Virus record (IMG/VR): IMGVR_UViG_3300045988_176129
Coordinates: 24,700-88,699 of that record
Source: a virus
Direction: 5' to 3' (one strand)
DNA: 64,000 nt
Shown in pieces: positions 12,557 through 49,749 of the stretch (the first letter of the stretch is position 1; every line of letters begins with the position of its first letter). The notes beneath the pieces are model-generated. The model saw only the letters and a program-made list of their open reading frames with translations. It made no database searches and was not told where the DNA came from. Made by a program: the position numbers and the translations under genes.

Positions 12557-13198
12557 ATGAAGCTACGAAAAATATTTATAGTTGGAGCAACTTTAGTTGT
12601 TCTAATTGCCACTACTAAAACAGGAAAAGTTCAATCAACTGAACGTGTATATGATTTATCTTCTTCTAAAGTAGAGGTTAAGGAATTAACAACAAAAAAA
12701 GTATCAACAGAACAAGAAATAAAAATTGAAACTGGTGGTTTTATGATTCCTACAACAACAGAAGAAATGACTACTGAGGAAGAATATACTACAGAAGCTA
12801 TAACAGAAGAATATTTTGAGTCAGAAACAACAGAGGCGGCAACTGAAGATTATAGTCTTCCTGAACCTATCATAGAAGACACTGAAGAAGAAAGCGCAGA
12901 GGTTTCCGAAGACCCCGCAGCCGCATATTCTTTTGATGAACTCATGTGGATGGGAGTTATTTATTGGGGAGATTATAGATGGACATATTATTCTGAATCT
13001 GTTTTGCCGGGAGAGGGACTTAATATTCCAGGAAGATATACAGATGAAACAGGATTTGTATGTGATGAAAATGGATATATTTGTTTAGCATCAAGTGATT
13101 TAAGTTATGGCACTATTGTTTCTACTCCTTTTGGGCGAATGGGTTGTGTTTATGATTCGGGCTGCCCGAGCGGAACTTTAGATGTATACGTAAGATAA
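12557..13198 (+). CDS. secreted protein with C-terminal 3D (MltA-like) domain
   Basis: Signal peptide, Thr/Glu-rich linker, C-terminal block ending in DSGCPSGTLDVYV that resembles the 3D domain. Confidence 0.55.
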   Translation: MKLRKIFIVGATLVVLIATTKTGKVQSTERVYDLSSSKVEVKELTTKKVSTEQEIKIETGGFMIPTTTEEMTTEEEYTTEAITEEYFESETTEAATEDYSLPEPIIEDTEEESAEVSEDPAAAYSFDELMWMGVIYWGDYRWTYYSESVLPGEGLNIPGRYTDETGFVCDENGYICLASSDLSYGTIVSTPFGRMGCVYDSGCPSGTLDVYVR

Positions 13199-13505: not shown

Positions 13506-13638
13506 TTGAAAAAATAAAAAAATTATATTATAATATATATACAAAGTTAAGAAAGGGATATAAAAAATAAATAAAAATTTTCTTGACAAAAATGTTAAAA
13601 TATGTTATAATAAAAAAGAAATAAGATACAAAACATTT

Positions 13639-13713
13639 TGGGATGTGGTCTAGTTTGGCTAAGACGCAGGATTTGGGTTCCTGAAATCGAGAGTTCGAGT
13701 CTCTCCATTCCAA
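13639..13713 (+). tRNA. tRNA-Pro(TGG)
   Basis: Hand-folded cloverleaf: 7-bp acceptor, D-stem gtct/agac, anticodon loop tttgggt, T-arm gagag-ttcgagt-ctctc. Confidence 0.8.
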
Positions 13714-13843
13714 TTTTCATAAATTAAATATAATAATTGATATTATAAAAAATTTATGATATAATAATTATATAAGATGAAGGAATGTGAAACATTCCCA
13801 TGTAAGTTCCCTTTGCGGTTTTCTTCTTTATCTTATATATTAT

Positions 13844-13981
13844 TCCCTAGTAGCTCAGTTGGTAGAGTGTCTGACTGTGCGGAAATAGTATAAGCAGTAC
13901 GTCTGTAGCCCAGAAGATTTGAGTTCAAATCTCAATTTCCGATTAATCAGAATGTCGTAGGTTCGAGTCCTACCTGGGGAG
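13844..13981 (+). tRNA. tRNA-like gene with GTG-type anticodon loop interrupted by a ~65-72-nt insertion
   Basis: Canonical acceptor, D-arm and T-arm; the anticodon-stem halves (tctga / tcaga) are separated by 72 nt. Confidence 0.4.
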
Positions 13982-14120
13982 CTAGGTTAAGTTATTCATA
14001 GACTCGCCGATTGCAGAAAGTAGGAATGTTGTTATTTAAAATGGTAACACAGTCGCCGAAAGGACTGTCTGTCAGACTCCTTGACGGAGAATAGGAGTAG
14101 AGTTATAAGTGAAGATGATT

Positions 14121-14145
14121 GGAGGTTCGAATCCTTCCCCGCCGA
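14121..14145 (+). other. orphan canonical T-arm plus 3' acceptor-like element (unresolved tRNA or tRNA-like RNA end)
   Basis: ggagg-ttcgaat-ccttc followed by cccgccg; no 5' partner found within 100 nt. Confidence 0.3.
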
Positions 14146-14312
14146 AAAGTGGTGGGCGCGAAAGGAGTGCTAATCGAAGAACTTATTTTAGTTGAAGTAC
14201 AAAGTGTGTTGCAGCATATGGAGTAAATACTAAAGTAACTCGACAAGATTTACTGCAATAAGTCTTGATAGCTTAGTCATCTAATTGGAAGGATGCCACG
14301 GTATGTGGTCAC

Positions 14313-14337
14313 AGAGGTTCGATTCCTCTCTAAGATT
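14313..14337 (+). other. orphan canonical T-arm element (unresolved tRNA-like)
   Basis: agagg-ttcgatt-cctct followed by ctaagat; a possible 5' partner attttag lies 145 nt upstream. Confidence 0.3.
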
Positions 14338-14548
14338 TAGGCTCGGACTTTAACCCCGAGGGTAATAATTAGGGTTATTGCGTACAGAGAGATTGCCGAA
14401 CATTACGTATCCTCACTCTACCTTAACGAGATAAGGTGTAAAGATGTCTATGAAATGTCGTTTGAAAGAGATTTAGAGAGTTCACGAAGTAGCTCACCTT
14501 GTATCTTCAAGTTATGCTTCTTGGGGATATAGACAAAAAGCATTTTAA

Positions 14549-14620
14549 TCCGATTTAGTACAATGGCTAGTACCCTGGCTTTGTAACCCAGTGATAAGTG
14601 TTCGATTCACTTAATCGGAA
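14549..14620 (+). tRNA. tRNA-Thr(TGT)
   Basis: Acceptor tccgatt/aatcgga, D gtac/gtac, anticodon loop tttgtaa, T aagtg-ttcgatt-cactt. Confidence 0.75.
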
Positions 14621-14744
14621 CTTAAAAATCATGCCATAGCGTAAGCAAAAGGTAGTTAGCTCAAAAGTAATAGATATAGGTCAGCCTTTTTACCTGTCTA
14701 TAGGATAGAGTGTTAGTTTTCTAGGTATGTTCTAACGAATAAAT

Positions 14745-14816
14745 GCCGATGTAGTATAATGGTTAGTACACCTGTCTTCCAAACAGGATATGCGAGTTCG
14801 ATTCTCGTCATCGGCT
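14745..14816 (+). tRNA. tRNA-Gly(TCC)
   Basis: Acceptor gccgatg/catcggc, anticodon loop cttccaa, T gcgag-ttcgatt-ctcgt. Confidence 0.8.
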
Positions 14817-14828
14817 TTAAAATAATTT

Positions 14829-14900
14829 GGGGTTATAACTCAATGGAAGAGTAATTGCTTTGCAAGCAATAGGTTGAGAGTTCGAGTCTCTCTGGCTCCA
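14829..14900 (+). tRNA. tRNA-Ala(TGC)
   Basis: Anticodon loop tttgcaa, T gagag-ttcgagt-ctctc, acceptor with G-U pairs. Confidence 0.75.
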
Positions 14901-14903
14901 CCT

Positions 14904-14976
14904 GCGAAAATAGTTCAGTTGGTAGAGCACACGTCTGATACGCGTGAAGTCGATGGTTCAAATCCATCTTTTCGCA
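14904..14976 (+). tRNA. tRNA-Ile(GAT)
   Basis: D-loop agttggtagagc, anticodon loop ctgatac, T gatgg-ttcaaat-ccatc. Confidence 0.8.
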
Positions 14977-14982
14977 TTATAT

Positions 14983-15055
14983 ACTGGTTTAGTTTAATGG
15001 ATAAAATATTTAGCTACGAACTAAAAGAGTATAGGTTCAATTCCTATAACCAGTA
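14983..15055 (+). tRNA. tRNA-Arg(ACG)
   Basis: Acceptor actggtt/aaccagt, anticodon loop ctacgaa, T atagg-ttcaatt-cctat. Confidence 0.75.
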
Positions 15056-15135
15056 TTAAATGTATTTATAATGGTAACTGGCAAACTTATTTGACTTAGA
15101 ATCAAATATTTGAGAGTTTAAATTTTTTAGACGCA

Positions 15136-15164
15136 TTGACAAAAATAAAAATTTTTGTTATAAT
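15136..15164 (+). promoter_or_regulatory. sigma70-type promoter (TTGACA-17-TGnTATAAT) driving a non-coding region
   Basis: ttgaca ... tgttataat. Confidence 0.6.
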
Positions 15165-15300
15165 ATTATTAAGGAAGTTGCGGAAAGAAAACTGTTTAAC
15201 CTTATCAAAAATAAACAAAACTGCTGACCTTATTTCAGTGGAGAATAGGGTATAAAGGAAAATATAAGAGAGAACCCGTGCAGCAACCGGTACGTAAAAT
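15165..15300 (+). ncRNA. candidate small non-coding RNA (no ORF; flanked by promoters)
   Basis: Lies between two promoters; locally GC-richer; contains paired segments gcaaccggtacg...ggttgcccc. Confidence 0.25.
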
Positions 15301-15439
15301 AATGGTTGCCCCTTTAATTTGATATTTTTAAAAATTTTTGATATAATATATATATCAAATAAAAAAGAAAAATACTGAGTTGTCATTCTTCTAAGTATTT
15401 GGATAGTAATAACAAAAGAATGTTCGCTGGATTGGTTAG

Positions 15440-15490
15440 TTGGACTTGAGAATTTTCTCAATTGTGGTTCGATTCCACTTTGACCACTTA
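15440..15490 (+). other. degenerate tRNA-like element (acceptor + anticodon-like arm + T-arm, no D-arm)
   Basis: tggttag ... ttgag-aattttc-ctcaa ... gtgg-ttcgatt-ccac-tttgacca. Confidence 0.25.
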
Positions 15491-15504
15491 TCATAAAACA
15501 ATAT

Positions 15505-15533
15505 TTGACAAAAATAAAATTTTATGATATAAT
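15505..15533 (+). promoter_or_regulatory. sigma70-type promoter upstream of the large non-coding element
   Basis: ttgaca-17-tgatataat. Confidence 0.6.
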
Positions 15534-15634
15534 AATTATATAAGAAATCTTGTCAATGGATTAATTAATAGCATAAGCGCAGAGATGGGTTAGTTATAAT
15601 AGTGAAGAAAGCTAATCAGTTCGCACTTTGATAA

Positions 15635-16291
15635 TTGAATACTTTAGTCAAAATATAATGTAATAACTCAGTGCAGAATGGTGAATTCAGCCATGCTGAG
15701 AAATCTTGAGAAACTCCAGTAACAACCGAAGCAAGGATACTTGCGGATATTGCTGTTTTCTTAATTGTGAAATTAAGAAAAGAAAGGATAGGCTCCAACG
15801 AGTAGAGAGATTGTGCTGTGGGGATTACGGTTTATAGCGTAGGACGTGTCTCGGTGATGGAATAGAGGCGAAGGTTAATAGCTTTCGCTGAATCAAAGTG
15901 AGGGTTTAGCTGGTGACTGTATCAAACCTTTGAAATGCCAATAAATCATTTTGTCGTGATGTTTTAGAAATAGAACTATAAGAGATGCAGATGACCTGAA
16001 AGTAGCCTAAGACAAAATTAAAGAAGAACAATTTTAATTCAAGTTGTATGTAAATGGAAATTACATAAAAGATTGAAAATATTGCTGAAAGTAATGGTGA
16101 AATCTAGGGGTAGTCATTCCCCTCTAAGTTAAGTGAGTTTCGACTCATGGGGTAAAGAAGTACAGACTAGCTATCTGGTTGCTATTTATAGCATTTAACT
16201 CAGCCTTTATCTCCTTAGTTGCGTAATAATAAACAAGTAATACATAGTAAGAGGAAGCTCTATTATAATATATTTTGACTAAAGTATTCAA
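15635..16291 (+). ncRNA. ~650-nt non-coding element bounded by perfect 23-bp inverted repeats (candidate large structured RNA, or MITE-like insertion)
   Basis: ttgaatactttagtcaaaatata at 15635-15657 is the exact reverse complement of 16269-16291; no ORF over 60 aa inside; higher GC than flanks; sits between a promoter and tRNA-Glu. Confidence 0.45.
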
Positions 16292-16300
16292 GATGGCGAT

Positions 16301-16372
16301 GGCGGTATCGTCTAGTGGTTAGGACAGCGGCTTTTCACGCCGCAAACCCGAGTTCAAATCTCGGTACCGTCA
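16301..16372 (+). tRNA. tRNA-Glu(TTC)
   Basis: Acceptor ggcggta/taccgtc, anticodon stem gcggc/gccgc, loop ttttcac, T ccgag-ttcaaat-ctcgg. Confidence 0.8.
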
Positions 16373-16562
16373 CTTTTAAGACTCATCATCTTAAAATGGG
16401 AAGAAATTGCTCCCAATGTAAAGTAATTTGACTTGATATTTCAAGAGGTAAATATCCCTGTATACTAGGAGACGGTATAACAGTTATTTGATGGTTTCTC
16501 TGTTAAAAGAAAAGAATTATTAGGGTTGCAACCTGGTGATGACAAATAGCTATAGTTAATAT

Positions 16563-16635
16563 CGCGAATTGGACAGTATCGGTAGCTGCGTAGCCTCATA
16601 AGCTAATCAGAGGGGTTCGACTCCCCTATTCGCAA
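16563..16635 (+). tRNA. tRNA-Met(CAT), initiator-like (C1-A72 mismatch)
   Basis: Acceptor cgcgaat / attcgca with a C:A mismatch at the top; anticodon loop ctcataa; T agggg-ttcgact-cccct; irregular D-arm. Confidence 0.6.
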
Positions 16636-17035
16636 GCAAAAGTACAATGATTTCATTTTTCCTTTCAGATATGTGTTTGTTGTATTGTACTTTTATATTT
16701 GGTGGTTGGTTTTTTCCAAGAGTTTACCAACTAAAAAACAAAACTTGTTCATATATAGTTCTTTTCATAATAGGCGGAGGAGCCTTTCTTCCGCCTTTAA
16801 TTCTGACTATTATTGAATTTACATATAAATTTCAAAGAAGGAGATTGATATTATGAAAGATAGAGAGTGGGGCAATTAAGTAGGCTAGGAAAAGTAAAAC
16901 ATCAGGTGGGTTTATAATTCCATAGACCTACTTGCCGCAAGTTTAATATTCATTAAGAGATATGAAATATTACTTGAAAAAATAAAAAAATTATAATATA
17001 ATATATGTATAAGATAAAGAAAGGAAATAAGAATT

Positions 17036-17158
17036 ATGACAAATGAAATCAAACTTGCAACATTAAAGAACAGATTGGCTACTATTGAAGCAAAGGGAAA
17101 GAGTACTCCTGGAGTTTTAAGAAAGTTAAGAAGACAGATTCGCTCTCTTGAGCGTTAA
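17036..17158 (+). CDS. 40-aa basic peptide (MTNEIKLATLKNRLATIEAKGKST...)
   Basis: Promoter and RBS aaaggaaat upstream; not in the supplied track because under 60 aa. Confidence 0.4.
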   Translation: MTNEIKLATLKNRLATIEAKGKSTPGVLRKLRRQIRSLER

Positions 17159-17169
17159 TCTGTAAAAAA

Positions 17170-17243
17170 GGGAAATTAGCTTAGTTGGTTAAAGCAGGCG
17201 GCTCATAACCGCAAGAGCCTAGGTTCGAATCCTAGATTTCCCA
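17170..17243 (+). tRNA. tRNA-Met(CAT) (elongator or Ile-lysidine type)
   Basis: Acceptor gggaaat/atttccc, anticodon loop ctcataa, T ctagg-ttcgaat-cctag. Confidence 0.75.
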
Positions 17244-17247
17244 CTAA

Positions 17248-17320
17248 GGATCGTAAGCTAACTTAGTAGAAGCACAAGACTGAAAATCTTGGGGACTTGG
17301 AGCGTAACCAAGACGATCCA
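17248..17320 (+). tRNA. tRNA-Phe(GAA)-like with non-canonical T-loop
   Basis: Perfect acceptor ggatcgt/acgatcc; anticodon stem caaga/tcttg, loop ctgaaaa; T-arm cttgg-agcgtaa-ccaag lacks the TTC. Confidence 0.45.
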
Positions 17321-17486
17321 CTTGGCGGGTAATGCATTTGCCCCACCACCTAGTGCCTAAGCTGGGGAACTTTGGGAAAGATTCTCAATAGTAAAGGATT
17401 AAGACTTTGCAAATTATTAGATGAAATGGGCGATAATCATAAACAGGAACAATTACTTCGCCTCCTGTGGTAATCAAATATTATAT

Positions 17487-17570
17487 GGATGGGTATGTCT
17501 AGTGGCGATGACAGCGGTCTGTAAAACCGTGACGTAAGATACACCGTAGGTTCGACTCCTACCCCATCCA
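17487..17570 (+). tRNA. tRNA-Tyr(GTA), long variable arm
   Basis: Acceptor ggatggg/cccatcc, anticodon loop ctgtaaa, variable arm about 14 nt, T gtagg-ttcgact-cctac. Confidence 0.75.
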
Positions 17571-17768
17571 CTTAGATAAGATAAAAACAGGCGGGAGACG
17601 CGGCTCGCTAGTGAAAAGTCTTTAAGAATGACAAATAAACAAAACATTCAAGCTATATTTCTCTTTGAGACAAGGTACCTCTGAGTTCGCGCTATTGAGG
17701 TTTAAAGCACCGTGCGGTTCCGGAAAAACATAGCAACCTTGGGAGAAATATATCATCTTATCTATTAA

Positions 17769-17850
17769 GTCGAGATGGCGAAATTGGTATACGCGGTAGA
17801 CTCAAACTCTACTCTAGAAATAGTTGTGGGTTCAACTCTCACTCTCGACA
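17769..17850 (+). tRNA. tRNA-Leu(CAA)
   Basis: Acceptor gtcgaga/tctcgac, 3-bp D-stem, anticodon loop ctcaaac, long variable arm, T gtggg-ttcaact-ctcac. Confidence 0.7.
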
Positions 17851-17856
17851 TTATAT

Positions 17857-17939
17857 GCGCCCGTGGTGAAATTGGTAAACACATGAGATTTAAGCTCTCA
17901 CGACTTCGGGTCTTGCGGGTTCGAGTCCCGCTGGGCGCA
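17857..17939 (+). tRNA. tRNA-Leu(TAA)
   Basis: Acceptor gcgcccg/tgggcgc, anticodon loop tttaagc, long variable arm, T gcggg-ttcgagt-cccgc. Confidence 0.75.
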
Positions 17940-18169
17940 CTAAAATTGAGTAGAAAGTTTGGAATCTTTCTAATAAATCTCAACCTGGGTGCTCAATTTT
18001 ATATATAATCTTATGCGCAAAAAGATTAAAGAACAATGGTAAGTTTCCATTACAGAGTATTGCTTTTATATAGAATAATGGATTGGATAAAAGCAATAGA
18101 TGAAATTACAAGAGGTTGATTCTAAACCTTATGGAGCTTGAAATACAGGTACACATAAAAAGAATCATC

Positions 18170-18240
18170 GCGGGTGTAGCTTAATGGGTAGAGCACTTCA
18201 ATGTTAATGGAGGGATGAGGTTCGAATCCTCCGCCCGATC
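18170..18240 (+). tRNA. tRNA-Asn(GTT)-like with irregular acceptor stem
   Basis: D gctt-aatgggta-gagc, anticodon stem cttca/tggag, loop atgttaa, T (t)gagg-ttcgaat-cctcc; the acceptor pairs only with a bulge. Confidence 0.45.
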
Positions 18241-18315
18241 TCTTTATTGATTTTTTATGAATTTTATATTATAATATATATATAAGATATAAGATATAAA
18301 AAGGAGATAAAATAT

Positions 18316-18633
18316 ATGTTTTTTAACATTTGGATAGATGATATGCGGCAACCGCCCCATAAAGATAACTTAGTAGTATTCCGAAATGCAGAATCTGCAA
18401 TAGAATGGTTTGAAAATGAAGAAGAGATAACCTCTAATGACTGCTTTTGTTTATATTTAGACCATGATTTAGGAGAAGGAATGTCTGGATACGACTTCTG
18501 TAAATGGTTTATAGAATGGAACTATAACAAATGTTATGATGCTACTTTTGTATTATTGACAGCTAATCCTGTTGGTAGAAATAATATGCGGCAGCTAATG
18601 ACTCATTATGGCTATGAAGAAAAATATCATTAA
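18316..18633 (+). CDS. receiver (REC)-like domain protein, hypothetical
   Basis: Promoter and RBS aaaaaggagat; DD pair (IWIDDMR), LYLDHDLGEG and T...K positions fit a CheY-like fold. Confidence 0.5.
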   Translation: MFFNIWIDDMRQPPHKDNLVVFRNAESAIEWFENEEEITSNDCFCLYLDHDLGEGMSGYDFCKWFIEWNYNKCYDATFVLLTANPVGRNNMRQLMTHYGYEEKYH

Positions 18634-18772
18634 TGACATTTATTAAAAAATATTATATAATATATATAGACTCACATAGTTTAAGTTAGGAAAACAACCG
18701 AATCCCAGGTAAAAGACCAATATTAAGTTATTGAAGATTTTCAAGCGCAAATCTTGATGTGGGTTCTACTTA

Positions 18773-18857
18773 GCGCGTGTCGCCTAGTGGCTAGGGCAAC
18801 GGACTTTTAATCCGTCGATGTTCAGCATCATCGCAGGTTCAAATCCTGTCACGCGCA
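18773..18857 (+). tRNA. tRNA-Lys(TTT) with an unusual 17-nt variable arm
   Basis: Acceptor gcgcgtg/cacgcgc, D gcct/gggc, anticodon stem acgga/tccgt, loop cttttaa; extra hairpin gatg-ttcagca-catc before T-arm gcagg-ttcaaat-cctgt. Confidence 0.6.
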
Positions 18858-18928
18858 TTGACATATTATAAAAAATATGTTAAAATATTTATATAATGAT
18901 AAGAAAGAAGAAGTCATTATAAAATTTT

Positions 18929-19002
18929 GGCTCTGAGGTGTAACTGGTTTGCATAATACCCTGTCACGGTATAGGTAACGGGTTCAAGTCCCGTCTGAGT
19001 CG
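18929..19002 (+). tRNA. tRNA-Asp(GTC)
   Basis: Anticodon stem atacc/ggtat, loop ctgtcac, T acggg-ttcaagt-cccgt; one U:U in the acceptor. Confidence 0.7.
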
Positions 19003-19115
19003 CTTCACTTAGTAGATTGAAGTCGCGAATATAATATCTACTGAAGAAGATAATAAGTCTATCCGCGGAGATTGTGATAGAAACTGTTATTTTGGCAGAT
19101 AAGTGGACTGCCGTT

Positions 19116-19188
19116 TGTCCTAGGGGTCAGGTTGGTTCTGATGCAGGTCTGCAAAACCTGAGAAGTGAGTTCAAATCTCACCAAGGAC
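19116..19188 (+). tRNA. tRNA-Cys(GCA)
   Basis: Anticodon stem caggt/acctg, loop ctgcaaa, T gtgag-ttcaaat-ctcac, discriminator U. Confidence 0.65.
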
Positions 19189-19451
19189 TTAACAATAGTT
19201 CATTTGTATTGTTGAGGAGTAACGACCCTTGACCTAGCTGTGGTAGCTAGAGGAACGAAAAAATAACCATATTAATATTTTATAAGTAAATTTAATAATA
19301 AGCGAAAAACCCGGTGACATGATTTCCTGCTTCTGTAAGCTGAAGGGAAACAAAAAGATGTGAATTACAGATATGCTTATTATAAAAATGCAGTTTGTGT
19401 TCTAATTACGTTCTAATTATAGGGTTATTGAAAGTAAAATATTAATATTAT

Positions 19452-19539
19452 GCCGTCTTACTCAAGTTTGGTTGAAGAGGTCGCATTGCTAACGCGATAG
19501 GCTGTAACAGGTGCGGAGGTTCAAATCCTCCAGACGGCG
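19452..19539 (+). tRNA. tRNA-Ser(GCT)
   Basis: Perfect acceptor gccgtct/agacggc, 3-bp D-stem, loop ttgctaa, long variable arm, T ggagg-ttcaaat-cctcc, discriminator G. Confidence 0.7.
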
Positions 19540-19578
19540 CTTATACTTATAAGAAATTGTTTGTAATTTCATAATAAT

Positions 19579-19652
19579 ATCTCGGTAAAGATAATTGGAA
19601 ATCGCTTGGTCTCCAAAACCATAGTACCTGGGTTCGATTCCTAGCTGAGATG
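19579..19652 (+). tRNA. tRNA-Trp(CCA)
   Basis: Acceptor atctcgg/ctgagat, anticodon loop ctccaaa, T ctggg-ttcgatt-cctag; weak D-stem. Confidence 0.55.
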
Positions 19653-19917
19653 TTTTCTTCCTTTGTAATTCATAGAGAAGATATGATGATCGCCTAACTG
19701 GATAAAGGTTATAATACCAGTACATAAAGGGTAATCCAAGTAACCGAAAATGGGAGATAACCTGTGTGACGTTTATTGTTTACGTCTTAAAATAATATGA
19801 CGAGTTTTATAGTCTTTTAGCGATGACAAGCAAAGAGTGCGGCAGCTGACTTTTATAGCAGTTAGCCTAGAGTGGTGCGTTGGCGGCTTGAGCCAATAGT
19901 CAAAATCAAGCATATAT

Positions 19918-19989
19918 TGGGTTATCGCCAAATGGTAAGGCAGCGGGTTTTGATCCCGCGATTTGCAGGTTCGAGTCCTGCTAGCCCAG
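19918..19989 (+). tRNA. tRNA-Gln(TTG)
   Basis: Acceptor tgggtta/tagccca, anticodon stem gcggg/cccgc, loop ttttgat, T gcagg-ttcgagt-cctgc. Confidence 0.75.
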
Positions 19990-20000
19990 TTTATAAATAT

Positions 20001-20085
20001 GCCGAGGTACCTTAGTGGGGAGGAGGCGTTGTCTTGAAAACAATCGTCCTTCACGGGACTGGGAGTTCGAATCTCTCCCTCGGCG
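20001..20085 (+). tRNA. tRNA-Ser(TGA)
   Basis: Acceptor gccgagg/cctcggc, loop cttgaaa, long variable arm, T gggag-ttcgaat-ctctc. Confidence 0.75.
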
Positions 20086-20087
20086 CT

Positions 20088-20160
20088 GTGACATTAGTTC
20101 AGTTGGTAGAACATTGGATTGTGGTTCCAAATGTCGTGAGTTCAAGTCTCACATGTCACC
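20088..20160 (+). tRNA. tRNA-His(GTG) without an encoded G-1
   Basis: Acceptor gtgacat/atgtcac, D gttc-agttggta-gaac, loop ttgtggt, T gtgag-ttcaagt-ctcac, discriminator C; base -1 is T. Confidence 0.75.
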
Positions 20161-20272: not shown

Positions 20273-21238
20273 ATGAGAAAAATAACAGAAACACATACAG
20301 GAAAGATTGTAACTGATACAGATTTAACTCTTGAATATTTATATGTTGGTGATTATGGAAAAGAGAATAATATTAAGGCATCATTTCTTGGATATGATAA
20401 AAGAATTGATAAGGTAGAGCATAAACCTGTAGATATTACTGATAAGCTTGTAGTGACTGTATCTTCACAAAAAGGTTGTCCTATGAATTGCAATTTCTGT
20501 GACTGTCCTAAACTTGGATTTAAAGGTAATGCAACTTTGCCAGAGTTGATTACGGAAATTATGTCAGGTGTTGCTTTATCTGGAATTAAGCATGGACAAA
20601 GATTGAATGTACATTATGCAAGAATGGGTGAACCAACATTTAATCCAAATGTTATTACATCGGCAAAGTTTATTGCGCAAATGTTAATGAGTGAAAATTC
20701 AGATGTAACTTTTGATACATACCATCCTGTAGTGTCTACTATGATGCCAAAATCAAATAAAAACCTTAAAGAGTTTTTACATAAATGGATAACAACTGGA
20801 TTTGTATATGGCGGAGAGGATGGTTTTGGATTACAGTTTTCTATAAATACTCTTAATGAGAATGATAGAAATGAAATGTTCAGAAACAGGTCTTTATCAT
20901 TGCAGGAAATTAGTAATATTATCAAAGAACTTCCTTATCCGAAGAAGAGAAAATATACATTAAATTTTGCGGTTACTTCCAAGAGTAATCTTAATGTAGA
21001 CCTTATGAACAAATATTTTGATAAGAAGAAATGCATTGTTAAAATGACGCCAATTCATGAGACTGTTGAAGCTGTTGATGAAGGATATGAAATTGTGCAT
21101 GATTTTGATGTATATGAGCAGTTTGAGCAGCCACTTGTAAATGATGGATGGGATGTAATTGTCTTTGTTCCCTCAAAAGAGGAAGATGAGGACAGAATTA
21201 CATGTGGAAATTCGTTAATTGCATTAGGAAACAAGTAA
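20273..21238 (+). CDS. radical SAM enzyme, RlmN/Cfr-like (candidate rRNA/tRNA adenosine C2 methyltransferase)
   Basis: VSSQKGCPMNCNFCDC has the CxxxCxxC cluster inside a vSSQxGC...C.FC context typical of RlmN; a C-terminal ITCGNS may hold the second catalytic Cys. Confidence 0.55.
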   Translation: MRKITETHTGKIVTDTDLTLEYLYVGDYGKENNIKASFLGYDKRIDKVEHKPVDITDKLVVTVSSQKGCPMNCNFCDCPKLGFKGNATLPELITEIMSGVALSGIKHGQRLNVHYARMGEPTFNPNVITSAKFIAQMLMSENSDVTFDTYHPVVSTMMPKSNKNLKEFLHKWITTGFVYGGEDGFGLQFSINTLNENDRNEMFRNRSLSLQEISNIIKELPYPKKRKYTLNFAVTSKSNLNVDLMNKYFDKKKCIVKMTPIHETVEAVDEGYEIVHDFDVYEQFEQPLVNDGWDVIVFVPSKEEDEDRITCGNSLIALGNK

Positions 21239-47527: not shown

Positions 47528-48303
47528 TGTCAATATTTATTACTGGGGATACCCATGGTGATTTCCGCAGATTCTCAAGTCAGTATTTCTCAGAAGGAAA
47601 AAATCTAAATAGAAATGATTATGTTATTATATGTGGAGATTTTGGCGGAATTTGGGATATAGATAAACACAATCTTTCTGAAAAATATTGGCTTGATTGG
47701 TTAAATGCAAAACCTTGGACTACTCTTTTTGTAGATGGAAACCATGAAAATTTTACTCGTTTAAATAGTTTCCCGCAAGTAGAATTTTGCGGAGGTCTTA
47801 CTCATCAGATACGTCCGCATATTTATCATTTAATGCGAGGAGAAATTTTTGAAATAGATAATTGTACTATTCTTGCTTTTGGCGGTGCGCCATCACATGA
47901 CATCCAGGATGGTATAATTGATCCTTCAATAGATAAGGATTGGAAGGATACAGCTAGGTTATGGAGAAAGCAACATAAACTCTTTAGAATTAAAGGTATC
48001 TCTTGGTGGGAAGAAGAGGTGCCTACTGCCGCAGATTTTGACAATGCAAAGAAAAATTTAGCTTTATATAATAATAAAGTTGATTTTATTGTTACACACG
48101 AAGCACCCGCTTCTGCTTTTTATGAAATGGCTTTATGGGGGAAAGTGCCACCATCACAATATTTGCCAAGCGAAACGTCAAAACAAATTCAAGATTTAAT
48201 ATCTAATGTGGAATATAAACAGCATTATTTTGGTCATCATCATCTTGATAAAAGATTTAATTTTTCTGAATGTTTATATACATCAATTCAGCAAATACAT
48301 TAA
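47527..48303 (+). CDS. calcineurin-like metallophosphoesterase
   Basis: GDTHGD ... GDFGG ... GNHE ... H motifs. Confidence 0.7.
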   Translation: MSIFITGDTHGDFRRFSSQYFSEGKNLNRNDYVIICGDFGGIWDIDKHNLSEKYWLDWLNAKPWTTLFVDGNHENFTRLNSFPQVEFCGGLTHQIRPHIYHLMRGEIFEIDNCTILAFGGAPSHDIQDGIIDPSIDKDWKDTARLWRKQHKLFRIKGISWWEEEVPTAADFDNAKKNLALYNNKVDFIVTHEAPASAFYEMALWGKVPPSQYLPSETSKQIQDLISNVEYKQHYFGHHHLDKRFNFSECLYTSIQQIH

Positions 48304-48307
48304 TTAA

Positions 48308-48340
48308 AAGAGGATTTAATAATCCTCTTTTTGTTTTTTA
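48308..48340 (+). terminator. Rho-independent terminator
   Basis: agaggatt-taat-aatcctct followed by ttttgtttttt. Confidence 0.6.
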
Positions 48341-48392
48341 TAAAAAAATATGATATAATATTTATAGAAAGTTATGAAAGAGGTGTATAAAA

Positions 48393-48695
48393 ATGAGTAT
48401 AAGCATTAGTGAGATGTACTGCACTGAATGTGGGAAAAGAGGAATAGATATTCCTAGAAAAGTAGGAAAAGAACGAGAAGCTGGACACTTAAAATCATTA
48501 TATTGTATAAACTGTAAAAAAATAACTAATCATGCAGAGGTTCGTCCTTTTGGAAAGTATAATAAAGAGGATTTTTTAATTGAATTTGAAAACGGAAATT
48601 TTAAAAACGGAGAAAGAATTGTAAAGTCATATAAACAATTTATATCTTCAATTGTAAATAACACTGAGAAAATAGAAAAGCAAAAGGAGGAATAA
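48393..48695 (+). CDS. zinc-ribbon protein
   Basis: CTECGK ... CINCKK. Confidence 0.5.
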   Translation: MSISISEMYCTECGKRGIDIPRKVGKEREAGHLKSLYCINCKKITNHAEVRPFGKYNKEDFLIEFENGNFKNGERIVKSYKQFISSIVNNTEKIEKQKEE

Positions 48696-48698
48696 AAA

Positions 48699-49193
48699 AT
48701 GGCAAATATTATTATGATGTGCGGTATTCCTGGAAGTGGAAAGTCTACTTATGTAGAAAAACATAGAGGAGAACATGACCTTTATATATCAAGAGATTTA
48801 ATAAGATTTTCAATGCTTGAAGAAGGACAGGAATATTTTGGAAAAGAAAAGCTTGTTTTTGATACTTTTGTTAAGACAATAAATCAGGCTTTAAAAGTTA
48901 ATAGTATAGAAAATATATGGGTAGATGCAACTCATATCAATCCGCCATCAAGATATAAGATTCTTAGAAGAATATCCAAGCAGTATAAGTTCCTTAAAAT
49001 TATAGTTATGGATATTCCTCTCTCAGTATGTATAGATAGAAATAATTATAGAGAGGGGCGGGCAAGGGTTCCTGAGTCCGCAATTAATGGCATGTATAAA
49101 AATTTTAGAATGCCTACTTTTGAAGAAGGTTATAATGAAATCATAACAGTAGATATGTATGGTAATGAAATAAGGAGGAATAGAAATGTCTAA
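48699..49193 (+). CDS. polynucleotide 5'-kinase (T4 Pnk kinase-domain-like, P-loop)
   Basis: MMCGIPGSGKST Walker A; RD..R, DATHINPPSR and R..RVPE.AINGMYK parallel the T4 PNK kinase domain. Confidence 0.7.
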   Translation: MANIIMMCGIPGSGKSTYVEKHRGEHDLYISRDLIRFSMLEEGQEYFGKEKLVFDTFVKTINQALKVNSIENIWVDATHINPPSRYKILRRISKQYKFLKIIVMDIPLSVCIDRNNYREGRARVPESAINGMYKNFRMPTFEEGYNEIITVDMYGNEIRRNRNV

Positions 49194-49749
49194 TATTTGG
49201 ATAACTAGCGATACTCATCTGGGGCATGATCGAGATTTTATCTGGAAGCCTCGAGGTTTTAATTCAGTTGATGAAATGAATAATGAAATAGTTAAGAGAT
49301 GGAATGAAAAGGTTCAGCCAGAAGATATAGTATATCATTTGGGGGATGTTATGCTTGGAGATAATGAAGTTGGAGAAAATCTTCTTAAGCAGCTTAATGG
49401 AAATATAAGGTTTATAATTGGTAATCATGATACCAATAGTAGACTAAGAATATATGAAAAGTATGGTGAAATTCTTGGCTATGCAACAGTAATAAAGTAT
49501 AAAAAGAAAATGTTATATCTTAGTCATTATCCAACTTTAACAGGAAATTTTGATGATGTAATAAAAGGCGGAACTCTAAACTTAAACTTATGCGGTCATT
49601 TACATACTTTTAATAAATTTTTAGATATGGATAAAGGAGCTATTTATCATTGTGAAATGGATGCACATAACTGTTATCCCATTTTACTTGATGATGTAAT
49701 AACAGATATAAAAAATTATTGTATAAATGAAAGAGGTAATAAAGAATGA
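49186..49749 (+). CDS. metallophosphoesterase (candidate 2',3'-phosphatase of the RNA-repair module)
   Basis: SDTHLGHD ... LGDV ... GNHD ... GHLH. Confidence 0.7.
   Translation: MSNIWITSDTHLGHDRDFIWKPRGFNSVDEMNNEIVKRWNEKVQPEDIVYHLGDVMLGDNEVGENLLKQLNGNIRFIIGNHDTNSRLRIYEKYGEILGYATVIKYKKKMLYLSHYPTLTGNFDDVIKGGTLNLNLCGHLHTFNKFLDMDKGAIYHCEMDAHNCYPILLDDVITDIKNYCINERGNKE

What the first reader, a model, noticed from the sequence alone, without database searches (positions are those of the whole stretch)
18773..18857. tRNA with Lys anticodon UUU but a type-II-like 17-nt variable arm
All four arms are well paired (acceptor gcgcgtg/cacgcgc, anticodon stem acgga/tccgt, loop cuUUUaa). Between the anticodon and T arms sits an extra hairpin, gatg-ttcagca-catc, which looks like a duplicated T-arm. 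Long variable arms are normally restricted to Leu, Ser and Tyr (and Sec). A Lys-anticodon tRNA with one could be a recoding or suppressor-like species, or a tRNA altered to evade an anticodon nuclease while keeping decoding.
Basis: seen in the sequence. Interest (0 to 1): 0.5.

Follow-up and report, generated by a model that had tools for sequence, protein, structure and literature searches.

The report
Phage lysine tRNA with extra arm
A gut phage encodes a lysine tRNA that carries an extra, evolutionarily conserved hairpin normally seen only in leucine, serine and tyrosine tRNAs. The same design recurs in dozens of unrelated phage tRNA clusters, which makes it a real and apparently undescribed tRNA variant whose purpose (possibly escaping host tRNA-cutting defences) is still only inferred.

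Summary
Window 18773-18857 (+) is a canonical 7/5 cloverleaf tRNA with anticodon UUU, discriminator A73 and a 17-nt variable region: C, a 4-5 bp hairpin, then AUC. ARAGORN, the Rfam tRNA model (63 bits) and the MFE fold all agree, and no alternative fold gives a short variable loop.

It sits in a tRNA array of at least 23 genes in a ~140-kb human-gut phage and is the only tRNA-Lys in the window.

The extra arm is not a quirk of this genome.
- All 11 distinct relatives sharing its D and anticodon arms have a hairpin of different sequence at the same place, with compensatory changes in 3 of 4 pairs, always followed by AUC.
- A generic pattern scan found 47 viral and 23 MAG loci with long-arm tRNA-Lys(UUU).
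- Cultured Serratia and Erwinia jumbo phages carry one too, annotated plainly as "tRNA-Lys".

The arm geometry resembles bacterial tRNA-Tyr, not Ser or Leu. AAA still means lysine here: the catalytic lysine of the phage DNA ligase is an AAA codon.

"Duplicated T-arm" and "suppressor/recoding" are not supported. Evasion of a tRNA-targeting nuclease is plausible but untested. I found no paper describing this class. Verdict: new variant of a known kind, with moderately high interest.

The parts
18773..18857 (+). tRNA-Lys(UUU), 85 nt, 7/5 cloverleaf, discriminator A73, no encoded CCA
   Evidence: ARAGORN; Rfam tRNA 63.1 bits; MFE cloverleaf. An identical copy occurs in independent assemblies L158, L249 and L250.
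18816..18832 (+). Variable region, 17 nt: C44, hairpin GAUGU-UCA-GCAUC (4 Watson-Crick pairs plus one U.G), then unpaired AUC ending in C48
   Evidence: ARAGORN bracket string s((((vvvvv))))sss. Compensatory changes in 3 of 4 aligned pairs across 11 relatives, 97.4% of cells paired. The trailing AUC is invariant in the subfamily.
18805..18811 (+). Anticodon loop CUUUUAA (anticodon UUU at 18807-18809), identical to canonical bacterial tRNA-Lys(UUU) loops
   Evidence: Sequence; ARAGORN places the anticodon at position 34.
18633..18661 (+). Sigma-70-like promoter match ATGACA-17-TATAAT (11/12), about 110 nt upstream of the tRNA. A second match, TTGACA-17-TAAAAT, lies at 18858-18886 just downstream, ahead of tRNA-Asp.
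   Evidence: Consensus scan: 10 sites found against 4.4 +/- 2.5 expected. This is a consensus match only, not evidence of function.
13638..20160 (+). The phage tRNA array that holds the gene: 21 ARAGORN tRNAs, a weak tRNA-Trp(CCA) at 19580-19651, an interrupted tRNA-Asn at 13844-13981, and a ROOL RNA at 15643-16280. The long-arm tRNA is the only tRNA-Lys in it.

Best explanation
This is a working phage-encoded tRNA-Lys(UUU) built on a class-II-like scaffold. It keeps what lysyl-tRNA synthetase mainly reads (anticodon U34-U35-U36 and discriminator A73) and all the tertiary invariants, so it is most likely charged with lysine. It would then decode AAA/AAG, the phage's commonest lysine codons.

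Between the anticodon and T arms it carries a selected hairpin: 1 unpaired nt, 3-5 bp, a small loop, then 3 unpaired nt (AUC). That is the geometry of bacterial tRNA-Tyr, not of Ser or Leu.

The inferred purpose is to change the shape of the tRNA body next to the anticodon stem. Host defence enzymes that recognise and cut or disable cellular tRNA-Lys (PrrC, RloC, PARIS-AriB, Schlafen-type nucleases) would then fail on the phage copy, and the phage could keep translating.

**Shown:** the tRNA and its arm; conservation of the arm with covariation; wide recurrence in phage tRNA arrays; standard meaning of AAA.

**Inferred:** lysylation, expression, and the anti-defence role of the arm.
For: **The arm is real and selected**
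- Three independent methods give the cloverleaf plus arm.
- All 11 distinct subfamily members found by a pattern that did not constrain the variable region have the arm. None has a short loop. Stems differ in sequence, with 3 of 4 pairs changed on both sides.
- Among 69 distinct long-arm Lys(UUU) tRNAs, hairpin potential is 3.46 against 2.27 +/- 0.10 in shuffles, with 47 different stem sequences.

**It recurs widely**
- 47 viral loci, all tRNA arrays, and 23 MAG loci match the generic pattern.
- Cultured Serratia phage BF and six Erwinia jumbo phages carry an 87-nt version.

**It looks like a Lys acceptor on a class II body**
- The discriminator follows the anticodon's isotype: A in 44 of 56 long Lys, G in 42 of 46 long Asn.
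- The core co-varies towards class II: position 9 is C or G, and 3-bp D stems with 11-12-nt loops are common.
- Geometry is 1 + stem + 3-4 nt, as in Tyr. Ser has 1 trailing nt and Leu has 2.
- In arrays carrying both forms, the long Lys is closest to the short Lys in 4 of the 7 arrays compared (L001, L004, L007, L013).

**AAA is read as lysine**
- AAA makes up 5.9% of codons across ten ORFs, and the ligase catalytic K102 is an AAA codon.

**Arms-race context in the window**
- The window encodes a Thg1-like enzyme, an RNA ligase, a polynucleotide kinase and two phosphoesterases.

**Precedent from the literature**
- The longer variable loop of phage SP15 tRNA-Tyr is required to neutralise Retron-Eco7 PtuAB (PMC12673091).
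- AriB cuts tRNA-Lys at C40|A41, 3-4 nt from the variable region, and also reads the D loop (PMC12409363).
- About 10 of 47 arrays carry a normal and a long Lys(UUU) side by side.
Against: - There is no expression, aminoacylation or cleavage data for any member.
- The anticodon loop is unchanged, so nucleases that read only the loop (PrrC-like) might still cut it. The phage also carries a tRNA-repair set that could deal with such cuts by itself.
- With the anticodon and arm masked, the body does not score as Lys-like. Only 8 of 69 long Lys tRNAs were classed as Lys, against 60% for short Lys. Lys identity therefore rests on the anticodon and A73 alone.
- Class IIb synthetases approach tRNA from the variable-loop side (my knowledge), so tolerance of a long arm by LysRS is assumed, not shown.
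- Six actinobacterial MAG contigs carry a solitary long-arm Lys(UUU) among housekeeping genes, so the design is not strictly a phage device.
- The host is unknown, so no cognate nuclease can be named.
- T5's own PARIS-resistant tRNA-Lys is a normal short-loop tRNA, so escape does not require an arm.
Confidence: 0.55

Rival explanations
1. The arm has no anti-defence role. It is a tolerated or mildly useful structural feature of a normal phage tRNA-Lys, for example stabilising an AT-poor core, helping processing from the array, or docking a modification enzyme. It persists in lineages by descent.
For: - Phage arrays show general plasticity of the variable arm. Many type-I (short) tRNA-Leu occur, along with occasional long-arm Trp, Cys, Met, Thr, Ile, Glu, Asp and Gly.
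- Solitary chromosomal-looking copies occur in actinobacterial MAGs.
- The anticodon loop is unchanged.
Against: - The arm recurs in very different acceptor and D-arm backgrounds with the same geometry and the same trailing CAUC/AUC motif.
- About 10 of 47 arrays keep a normal copy beside the long one.
- Both observations suggest a distinct selected function rather than drift.
Confidence: 0.2
2. It is a decoy or inhibitor rather than a decoder. The tRNA-like molecule binds and titrates a host tRNA-Lys-directed nuclease or another host factor, and the arm prevents productive cleavage.
For: - Belukhina et al. raise the possibility that over-expressed viral tRNAs act as competitive inhibitors of AriB (PMC12409363).
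- The SP15 tRNA-Tyr variable loop is needed for Retron-Eco7 inhibition.
Against: - All decoding and tertiary invariants, and A73, are kept.
- It is the only Lys tRNA in a set that is otherwise nearly complete.
- AAA and AAG together make up 9.6% of codons.
Confidence: 0.12
3. It is a missense or recoding tRNA. The Tyr-like arm, A73, G1-C72 and U35 let TyrRS (or the arm lets SerRS or LeuRS) charge it, so AAA would be partly read as another amino acid.
For: - The arm geometry matches tRNA-Tyr.
- With the anticodon masked, Tyr is among the top-scoring body models (16 of 69).
- Class II tRNAs with non-cognate anticodons that are mischarged do exist: nev-tRNAs (PMC3333845) and allo-tRNAs (PMC5389517).
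Against: - The catalytic Lys of LigA is AAA. At AAA positions the T. filiformis homologue has K, R or E in 16 of 31 cases and Y or S in none.
- AAA is the second most used codon, so misreading would damage every phage protein.
- A separate tRNA-Tyr(GUA) is present at 17487-17571.
- There is no G73, and 3 trailing nt argue against SerRS.
- 0 of 69 long Lys tRNAs score as Leu-like.
Confidence: 0.08
4. It is a degenerate gene or a prediction artefact, for example a tRNA inactivated by a 12-13-nt insertion.
For: - Taken alone, the hairpin in this one sequence is only marginally beyond chance (p about 0.04).
- The same array holds other disrupted or weak tRNAs: the Asn with a 65-nt insert and a weak Trp.
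Against: - The score is among the better ones in the array (63 bits).
- The sequence is identical in independent assemblies.
- The arm is conserved with covariation across many lineages.
Confidence: 0.05

Closest known systems
Canonical bacterial and phage tRNA-Lys(UUU), type I (e.g. phage T5 tRNA-Lys, E. coli lysT)
   Same: Anticodon loop CUUUUAA, anticodon UUU, discriminator A73, 7/5 acceptor/T branch and all tertiary invariants. It has the same position in a phage tRNA array.
   Different: - It has a 17-nt variable region with a hairpin instead of 5 nt.
- Position 9 is C rather than A.
- The D arm is of the GCCUAGUGGCUAGGGC type rather than AGCUCAGUUGGUAGAGC.
- With the anticodon masked, the body does not score as Lys.
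Bacterial class II tRNA-Tyr
   Same: Long variable arm with 0-1 unpaired nt 5' of it, a short 3-5-bp stem and about 3 unpaired nt 3' of it. A73, G1-C72, U35, and a D loop of the AGUGGC type.
   Different: The anticodon is UUU, not GUA. The trailing motif is AUC or CAUC rather than UUC. A separate bona fide tRNA-Tyr is present in the same array.
Phage SP15/T5-type tRNA-Tyr with an enlarged variable loop that neutralises Retron-Eco7 PtuAB (PMC12673091; PMC11555353)
   Same: A phage-encoded tRNA whose remodelled variable arm is the feature that defeats a tRNA-cleaving defence. This is the only experimental precedent for the mechanism proposed here.
   Different: There the tRNA is already class II and the arm is lengthened by 5 nt. 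Here a normally type-I isoacceptor has acquired an arm. No experiment exists for Lys.
Phage T5 tRNA-Lys(UUU) variant resistant to PARIS AriB (PMC11464382; PMC12409363)
   Same: A phage tRNA-Lys that keeps decoding while escaping a tRNA-Lys nuclease. Like T5 'Mut2', the window tRNA has C41 rather than A41 (UAAUCC).
   Different: T5 escapes by point changes (U39A, A41C, U16C) in a normal 78-nt tRNA with a short loop. The window tRNA keeps U39 and adds an arm.
Long-arm tRNA-Asn(GUU) of T5-like phages (83 nt, hairpin GUCGAAAGAC)
   Same: A type-I isotype with an inserted variable hairpin and an isotype-appropriate discriminator (G73). It is present in about 290 cultured phage records, annotated simply as tRNA-Asn.
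   Different: A different amino acid and a different phage lineage. Long Asn and long Lys rarely occur in the same array.
allo-tRNAs and nematode nev-tRNAs (class II tRNAs with non-Ser/Leu anticodons)
   Same: A long variable arm combined with an anticodon for another amino acid.
   Different: - allo-tRNAs have 8/4 or 9/3 acceptor/T branches and G73 or U73, and are serylated (PMC5389517). This tRNA is 7/5 with A73.
- nev-tRNAs are eukaryotic and are leucylated (PMC3333845).

Membership tests
tRNA (Rfam RF00005) | Covariance-model score above the gathering threshold, with a full-length cloverleaf | tested here: met
   63.1 bits against 29, model positions 1-71 of 71; ARAGORN call.
Class II (type II) tRNA architecture | Variable region of 10 nt or more that forms a stem-loop | tested here: met
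   17 nt with a 4-5-bp hairpin. The hairpin is conserved with compensatory changes.
Class II (type II) tRNA architecture | Class-II-type core: non-A at position 9, and a 3-bp D stem or weak 13:22 pair with an enlarged D loop | tested here: inconclusive
   The window tRNA has C9 and a 4th D pair that is U13.G22. Across the family, position 9 is C or G in 40 of 56 and the D stem is 3 bp in 33 of 56. No 3D data.
tRNA-Lys (bacterial identity set) | Anticodon U34 U35 U36 and discriminator A73 (E. coli LysRS identity set; my knowledge, and reviewed in PMC9976931) | tested here: met
   Sequence. A73 in 44 of 56 family members.
tRNA-Lys (bacterial identity set) | Body resembles tRNA-Lys when the anticodon is masked (isotype-specific model) | tested here: inconclusive
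   Ad hoc isotype HMMs: for the window tRNA the top models are Gln 40.8, Arg 39.4, Asn 34.0 and Tyr 33.7 bits, and Lys is not in the top six. The classifier is only 66% accurate (60% for short Lys) in cross-validation. tRNAscan-SE isotype models were not available.
tRNA-Lys (bacterial identity set) | Aminoacylated with lysine by LysRS | not testable with these tools
   Indirect only. AAA encodes the catalytic Lys of LigA, and AAA is 5.9% of codons.
tRNA-Ser | G73, at most 1 unpaired nt between the variable stem and the T stem, and an NGA or GCU anticodon | tested here: not met
   A73, 3 unpaired nt, UUU anticodon. The window's own tRNA-Ser(UGA) has the 1+5bp+1 layout. The family-wide modal geometry for Ser is (1,1).
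tRNA-Leu | A73 plus a Leu-type D arm and tertiary core; 2 unpaired nt 3' of the arm; NAG or YAA anticodon | tested here: not met
   A73 is present, but the anticodon is UUU and there are 3 trailing nt. 0 of 69 long Lys tRNAs score best with the Leu model, which is 95% accurate with a median margin of 17.8 bits.
tRNA-Tyr (bacterial) | Anticodon GUA (G34, U35, A36), A73, and a long arm with about 3 trailing nt | tested here: not met
   Geometry, A73 and U35 are met, but G34 and A36 are not (UUU). A separate tRNA-Tyr(GUA) lies at 17487-17571.
allo-tRNA / tRNA-Sec | 8/4, 9/3 or 8/5 acceptor/T branch; a long D stem with a tetraloop | tested here: not met
   7-bp acceptor stem and 5-bp T stem; 4-bp D stem with an 8-nt loop.
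Suppressor tRNA | Anticodon CUA, UUA or UCA | tested here: not met
   The anticodon is UUU.
Nuclease-evading phage tRNA (sensu van den Berg 2023; Burman 2024; Azam 2024) | Resists a defence nuclease that cleaves the host isoacceptor, and rescues infection | not testable with these tools
   Precedents only. The window tRNA has an unchanged anticodon loop, C41 instead of A41, and the added arm.

The most novel reading that the evidence does not exclude
Phages have repeatedly converted normally type-I tRNAs into class-II-shaped molecules as a general 'shape-camouflage' counter-defence. Lys(UUU) and Asn(GUU) are the main cases, with some Lys(CUU), Thr(UGU), Met/Ile(CAU) and Ile(UAU). The added Tyr-geometry arm leaves the cognate synthetase, EF-Tu and the ribosome satisfied, but it blocks host tRNA-directed nucleases or toxins that dock on the anticodon-stem, variable-loop and D-arm face. 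The window's tRNA-Lys would be one member of this unrecognised class of anti-defence tRNAs. The actinobacterial chromosomal copies would be captures of the same device.
Probability: 0.35. Interest if true: 0.8.

Novelty: new variant of a known kind. Interest (0 to 1): 0.62.

Why it matters
Textbooks and recent reviews restrict long variable arms in bacteria to tRNA-Leu, -Ser, -Tyr and -Sec. A widespread phage tRNA-Lys built on that architecture, with a parallel tRNA-Asn, breaks the rule while keeping the isotype's own identity nucleotides.

- **tRNA biology.** It implies that class IIb synthetases (LysRS, AsnRS), EF-Tu and the ribosome accept an extra arm on these isoacceptors. That gives natural scaffolds for orthogonal or tagged tRNAs.
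- **Phage-host biology.** tRNA-Lys is the most frequently reported target of anti-phage tRNases (PrrC, RloC, PARIS, Schlafen). If the arm is what protects the phage copy, it would be a new and easily recognised genomic signature of counter-defence. It would also point to nucleases that read the tRNA body rather than the anticodon loop.
- **Annotation.** These genes are currently labelled plain 'tRNA-Lys' or 'tRNA-Asn', so the class is invisible in databases.

Tried and rejected
1. **Alternative fold with a short variable loop.** None exists. The covariance model, ARAGORN and the MFE fold all place the 13 extra nt in the variable region.
2. **'Duplicated T-arm'.** Rejected from the relatives.
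3. **Close cultured relatives.**
   - blastn of the tRNA and of 18400-19300 found nothing beyond a generic tRNA-Asp match.
   - megablast of 41 other long-arm Lys tRNAs against cultured phages found nothing.
4. **Anchoring on neighbouring proteins to fetch syntenic arrays.**
   - The rSAM-like gene at 20273-21238 turned out to be a mosaic module. It is 94% identical in DNA within otherwise unrelated contigs that have no array.
   - The ORF at 12557-13198 gave only 3 distant loci without a tRNA-Lys.
5. **Origin from tRNA-Tyr or tRNA-Ser by anticodon switching.** Not supported. In 4 of the 7 two-form arrays compared, the long Lys is nearest to the short Lys. For the window subfamily no clear donor emerges.
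6. **Isotype models with the anticodon masked.** Inconclusive and low-powered.
7. **Cross-isotype pattern scans**, meant to show enrichment for A-starting codons. All 22 hits of the N[AG][CT] scan end in U36. However, the fixed frame GGACU...AAUCC is itself Lys-biased in short tRNAs, so I do not use these counts as evidence of enrichment.
8. **Using T5's experimentally tested tRNA-Lys and tRNA-Asn as direct support.** Rejected, because T5's own copies have short loops. The 83-nt Asn belongs to other T5-like phages.
9. **Literature.** Seven full-text searches and eleven papers read found no description of long-arm phage tRNA-Lys or tRNA-Asn. The library is partial, so this is absence of evidence only.

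Full report
**1. The observation**

Window 18773-18857 (+) is called tRNA-Lys(ttt), 85 nt, by ARAGORN. It scores 63.1 bits on the Rfam tRNA model against a gathering score of 29, and the model places 13 extra nucleotides in the variable region at high posterior probability. The minimum-free-energy fold is a cloverleaf plus one extra hairpin (-32.8 kcal/mol, z = -3.7).

Read directly from the sequence:
- Acceptor GCGCGUG/CACGCGC; U8 C9; D arm GCCU-AGUGGCUA-GGGC.
- Anticodon arm ACGGA-CUUUUAA-UCCGU.
- Variable region C-GAUGU-UCA-GCAUC-AUC, 17 nt.
- T arm GCAGG-UUCAAAU-CCUGU; discriminator A; no encoded CCA.

All standard invariants are present. No alternative fold with a short variable loop exists. 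Alone, the hairpin is only about 4% unlikely by shuffling, so the case for it rests on comparison.

**2. Context**

The window comes from a phage. It encodes topoisomerase II subunits, an NAD-dependent DNA ligase, an endolysin and an RNA ligase. The same genome appears as 137- and 140-kb contigs in ENA assemblies whose record names suggest human-gut cohorts.

The tRNA lies in an array at 13.6-20.2 kb. The array holds 21 ARAGORN tRNAs, a weak tRNA-Trp, an interrupted tRNA-Asn and a ROOL RNA. It supplies roughly one tRNA per amino acid, and the long-arm gene is the only tRNA-Lys in the window. Sigma-70-like promoter matches flank it.

The window also encodes a tRNA repair and processing set: a Thg1-like enzyme, an RNA ligase, a polynucleotide kinase and two phosphoesterases.

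**3. The arm is conserved**

A pattern covering only the D and anticodon arms (CCTAGNGGCYAKGGYAACGGACTTTTAATCCGT) was scanned over viral and metagenome collections. It recovered 11 distinct sequences.
- Every one has C + hairpin + AUC.
- None has a short loop.
- The stems differ: GAUG/CAUC, GAGA/UCUC, AAGC/GCUU, AAUUC/GAAUU, CAAGU/ACUUG, AAGA/UCUU. The loops are unrelated to one another.

On their alignment, 3 of the 4 aligned arm pairs change on both sides and 97.4% of cells pair. The whole cloverleaf pairs in 99.3% of cells, against 87.9% in shuffles and at most 46% when the partners are slid. This rules out a 'duplicated T-arm' and a degenerate gene.

**4. The design is widespread**

A generic pattern (GGACTTTTAATCC-N16-30-GGTTCRAATCC) found 47 viral loci, all tRNA arrays. 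It also found 23 contigs in the one-genome-per-species collection, all of them MAGs.
- Most MAG hits are arrays.
- Six actinobacterial MAGs instead have a solitary copy beside housekeeping genes: Ada/AlkA, GH3, DsbA and PPK2.

Across 69 distinct long-arm Lys(UUU) tRNAs, hairpin potential exceeds shuffles by more than 12 SD, with 47 different stems.

The typical layout is 1 nt + 3-4 bp + tetraloop + CAUC or AUC. That is the layout of bacterial tRNA-Tyr (0-1 nt 5', 3 nt 3'). tRNA-Ser has 1 and 1, and tRNA-Leu has 0 and 2. The window's own Ser, Leu and Lys genes show the same contrast.

Other family features:
- The discriminator follows the anticodon's isotype: A for long Lys, G for long Asn.
- Position 9 shifts from A to C or G.
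- 3-bp D stems become common.

About 10 of the 47 arrays hold a normal and a long Lys(UUU) together.

In cultured phages, an 87-nt version occurs in Serratia phage BF and six Erwinia jumbo phages, annotated 'tRNA-Lys'. An 83-nt long-arm tRNA-Asn occurs in about 290 T5-like phages. T5 itself has short-loop Lys and Asn.

**5. What it decodes**

AAA is 5.9% of codons across ten ORFs. The adenylation lysine of the phage NAD-dependent ligase (K102 in KMDG, aligned to KVDG of PDB 1v9p) is an AAA codon. At AAA positions the Thermus homologue has K, R or E in 16 of 31 cases and never Y or S. So AAA means lysine.

Several points together make lysylation the most likely fate, although it is not shown:
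- the UUU anticodon and A73;
- the absence of Ser features (G73, at most 1 trailing nt) and of a Leu-like body (0 of 69 score best as Leu);
- a separate tRNA-Tyr in the array.

Isotype models with the anticodon masked are inconclusive.

**6. Mechanism**

Shown: a conserved, structurally selected arm on an otherwise canonical Lys-identity tRNA, recurrent in phage arrays.

Inferred: the arm alters the tRNA body so that tRNA-Lys-directed defence enzymes fail on it. The supporting context is as follows.
- tRNA-Lys(UUU) is targeted by PrrC, PARIS-AriB and bacterial Schlafens.
- AriB cuts C40|A41, next to the variable region, and reads the D loop.
- The enlarged variable loop of phage SP15 tRNA-Tyr is required to neutralise Retron-Eco7, and Septu cuts the tRNA-Tyr variable loop.
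- The window phage invests in tRNA repair.

Against this reading:
- the anticodon loop is unchanged;
- T5 escapes PARIS without an arm;
- some copies look chromosomal;
- nothing has been tested.

Cross-isotype pattern counts (Asn at least 64, Lys(CUU) at least 11, Gln 7; all 22 hits of a second scan end in U36) are confounded by the Lys-biased frame of the pattern. I do not use them as evidence.

**7. Known or new**

Seven literature searches and eleven papers yielded no description of long-arm phage tRNA-Lys or tRNA-Asn. The papers included the PARIS, retron, OLD and Schlafen studies, the 2023 tRNA identity review and the 2020 review of non-canonical tRNAs, which has no mention of phage.

It is not an allo-tRNA, because it is 7/5 with A73. 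It is not tRNA-Sec, not a suppressor, and not a nev-tRNA.

I rate it a new variant of a known kind, with interest 0.62. The caveat is that the literature library is partial.

Noticed in passing
window 13844-13981 (+); also L249 856-993: A tRNA-Asn(GUU)-like gene (Rfam 54 bits; acceptor UCCCUAG/CUGGGGA; G73) is interrupted in its anticodon loop (CUGU|...|UAA) by a ~65-nt insert. The insert folds into a 7-bp closing stem plus three small hairpins, one of them T-arm-like (UUGAG-UUCAAAU-CUCAA), so it resembles a mini-cloverleaf nested inside a tRNA. It is conserved in an independent assembly, where the only change is U5C, which improves the U5.G68 acceptor pair. ARAGORN does not call it. A normal tRNA-Asn lies at 18170-18240. 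An exact-pattern scan of viral contigs found no other copy.
   Followed up: partly
L249 3176-4110 (same phage, another sample), corresponding to window 16301-16373: In the sister genome, tRNA-Glu(UUC) is split at its anticodon by an 855-bp insertion carrying a 246-aa HNH endonuclease ORF. The window has the uninterrupted gene. No Rfam group I intron match was found, and only about 114 nt of the insert are non-coding. It is either an intron-like or homing element, or a disrupted gene.
   Followed up: partly
window 44117-49749 (+): A tRNA repair and processing cluster: Thg1-like 3'-5' polymerase (44117-44977), RNA ligase with a PHA02142 OB domain (45984-47219), metallophosphoesterase (47527-48303), polynucleotide kinase (48699-49193) and phosphoesterase (49186-49749).
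   Followed up: partly
window 15643-16280 (+): A full-length ROOL RNA (Rfam RF03087, 255.9 bits) embedded in the tRNA array, between tRNA-Arg and tRNA-Glu.
   Followed up: no
window 19580-19651 and 15062-15135 (+): Two weak tRNA-like hits. The first (29.9 bits) reads as a degenerate tRNA-Trp(CCA) with several mismatched pairs. The second (23.3 bits) is below the gathering score in the window, but L249 has an ARAGORN tRNA-Leu(tag) at the corresponding place.
   Followed up: partly
window 20273-21238 (+); L166, L168, L169: A radical-SAM-like ORF (phrog_24834) directly after the array is 86-94% identical in DNA to genes in viral contigs whose flanks share no similarity with the window. This makes it a mobile mosaic module, with 268 relatives in IMG/VR.
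   Followed up: partly
L052, L053, L054, L056, L057, L062 (actinobacterial MAG contigs): A solitary 85-87-nt long-arm tRNA-Lys(UUU) (GCCCCUGUCGUCUAGCGGCCGAUGAC...) lies next to housekeeping genes (Ada/AlkA, GH3 glycosidase, DsbA-like, PPK2). This suggests a chromosomal class-II-like tRNA-Lys in some uncultured Frankiales and Mycobacteriales.
   Followed up: partly
L001-L153 (phage tRNA arrays): The arrays contain many type-I (short variable loop) tRNA-Leu genes: 12 CAA, 18 UAG and 15 UAA. They also contain occasional long-arm versions of Trp (8 of 40), Thr(UGU) (8 of 49), Met (7 of 91), Cys (6 of 34) and Ile(UAU) (5 of 15). The class I / class II boundary is generally loose in phage tRNAs.
   Followed up: no
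window 38802-41255 (+): An 817-aa protein with a major-vault-protein shoulder domain and a weak SPFH/Band 7 match, and no PHROG family.
   Followed up: no
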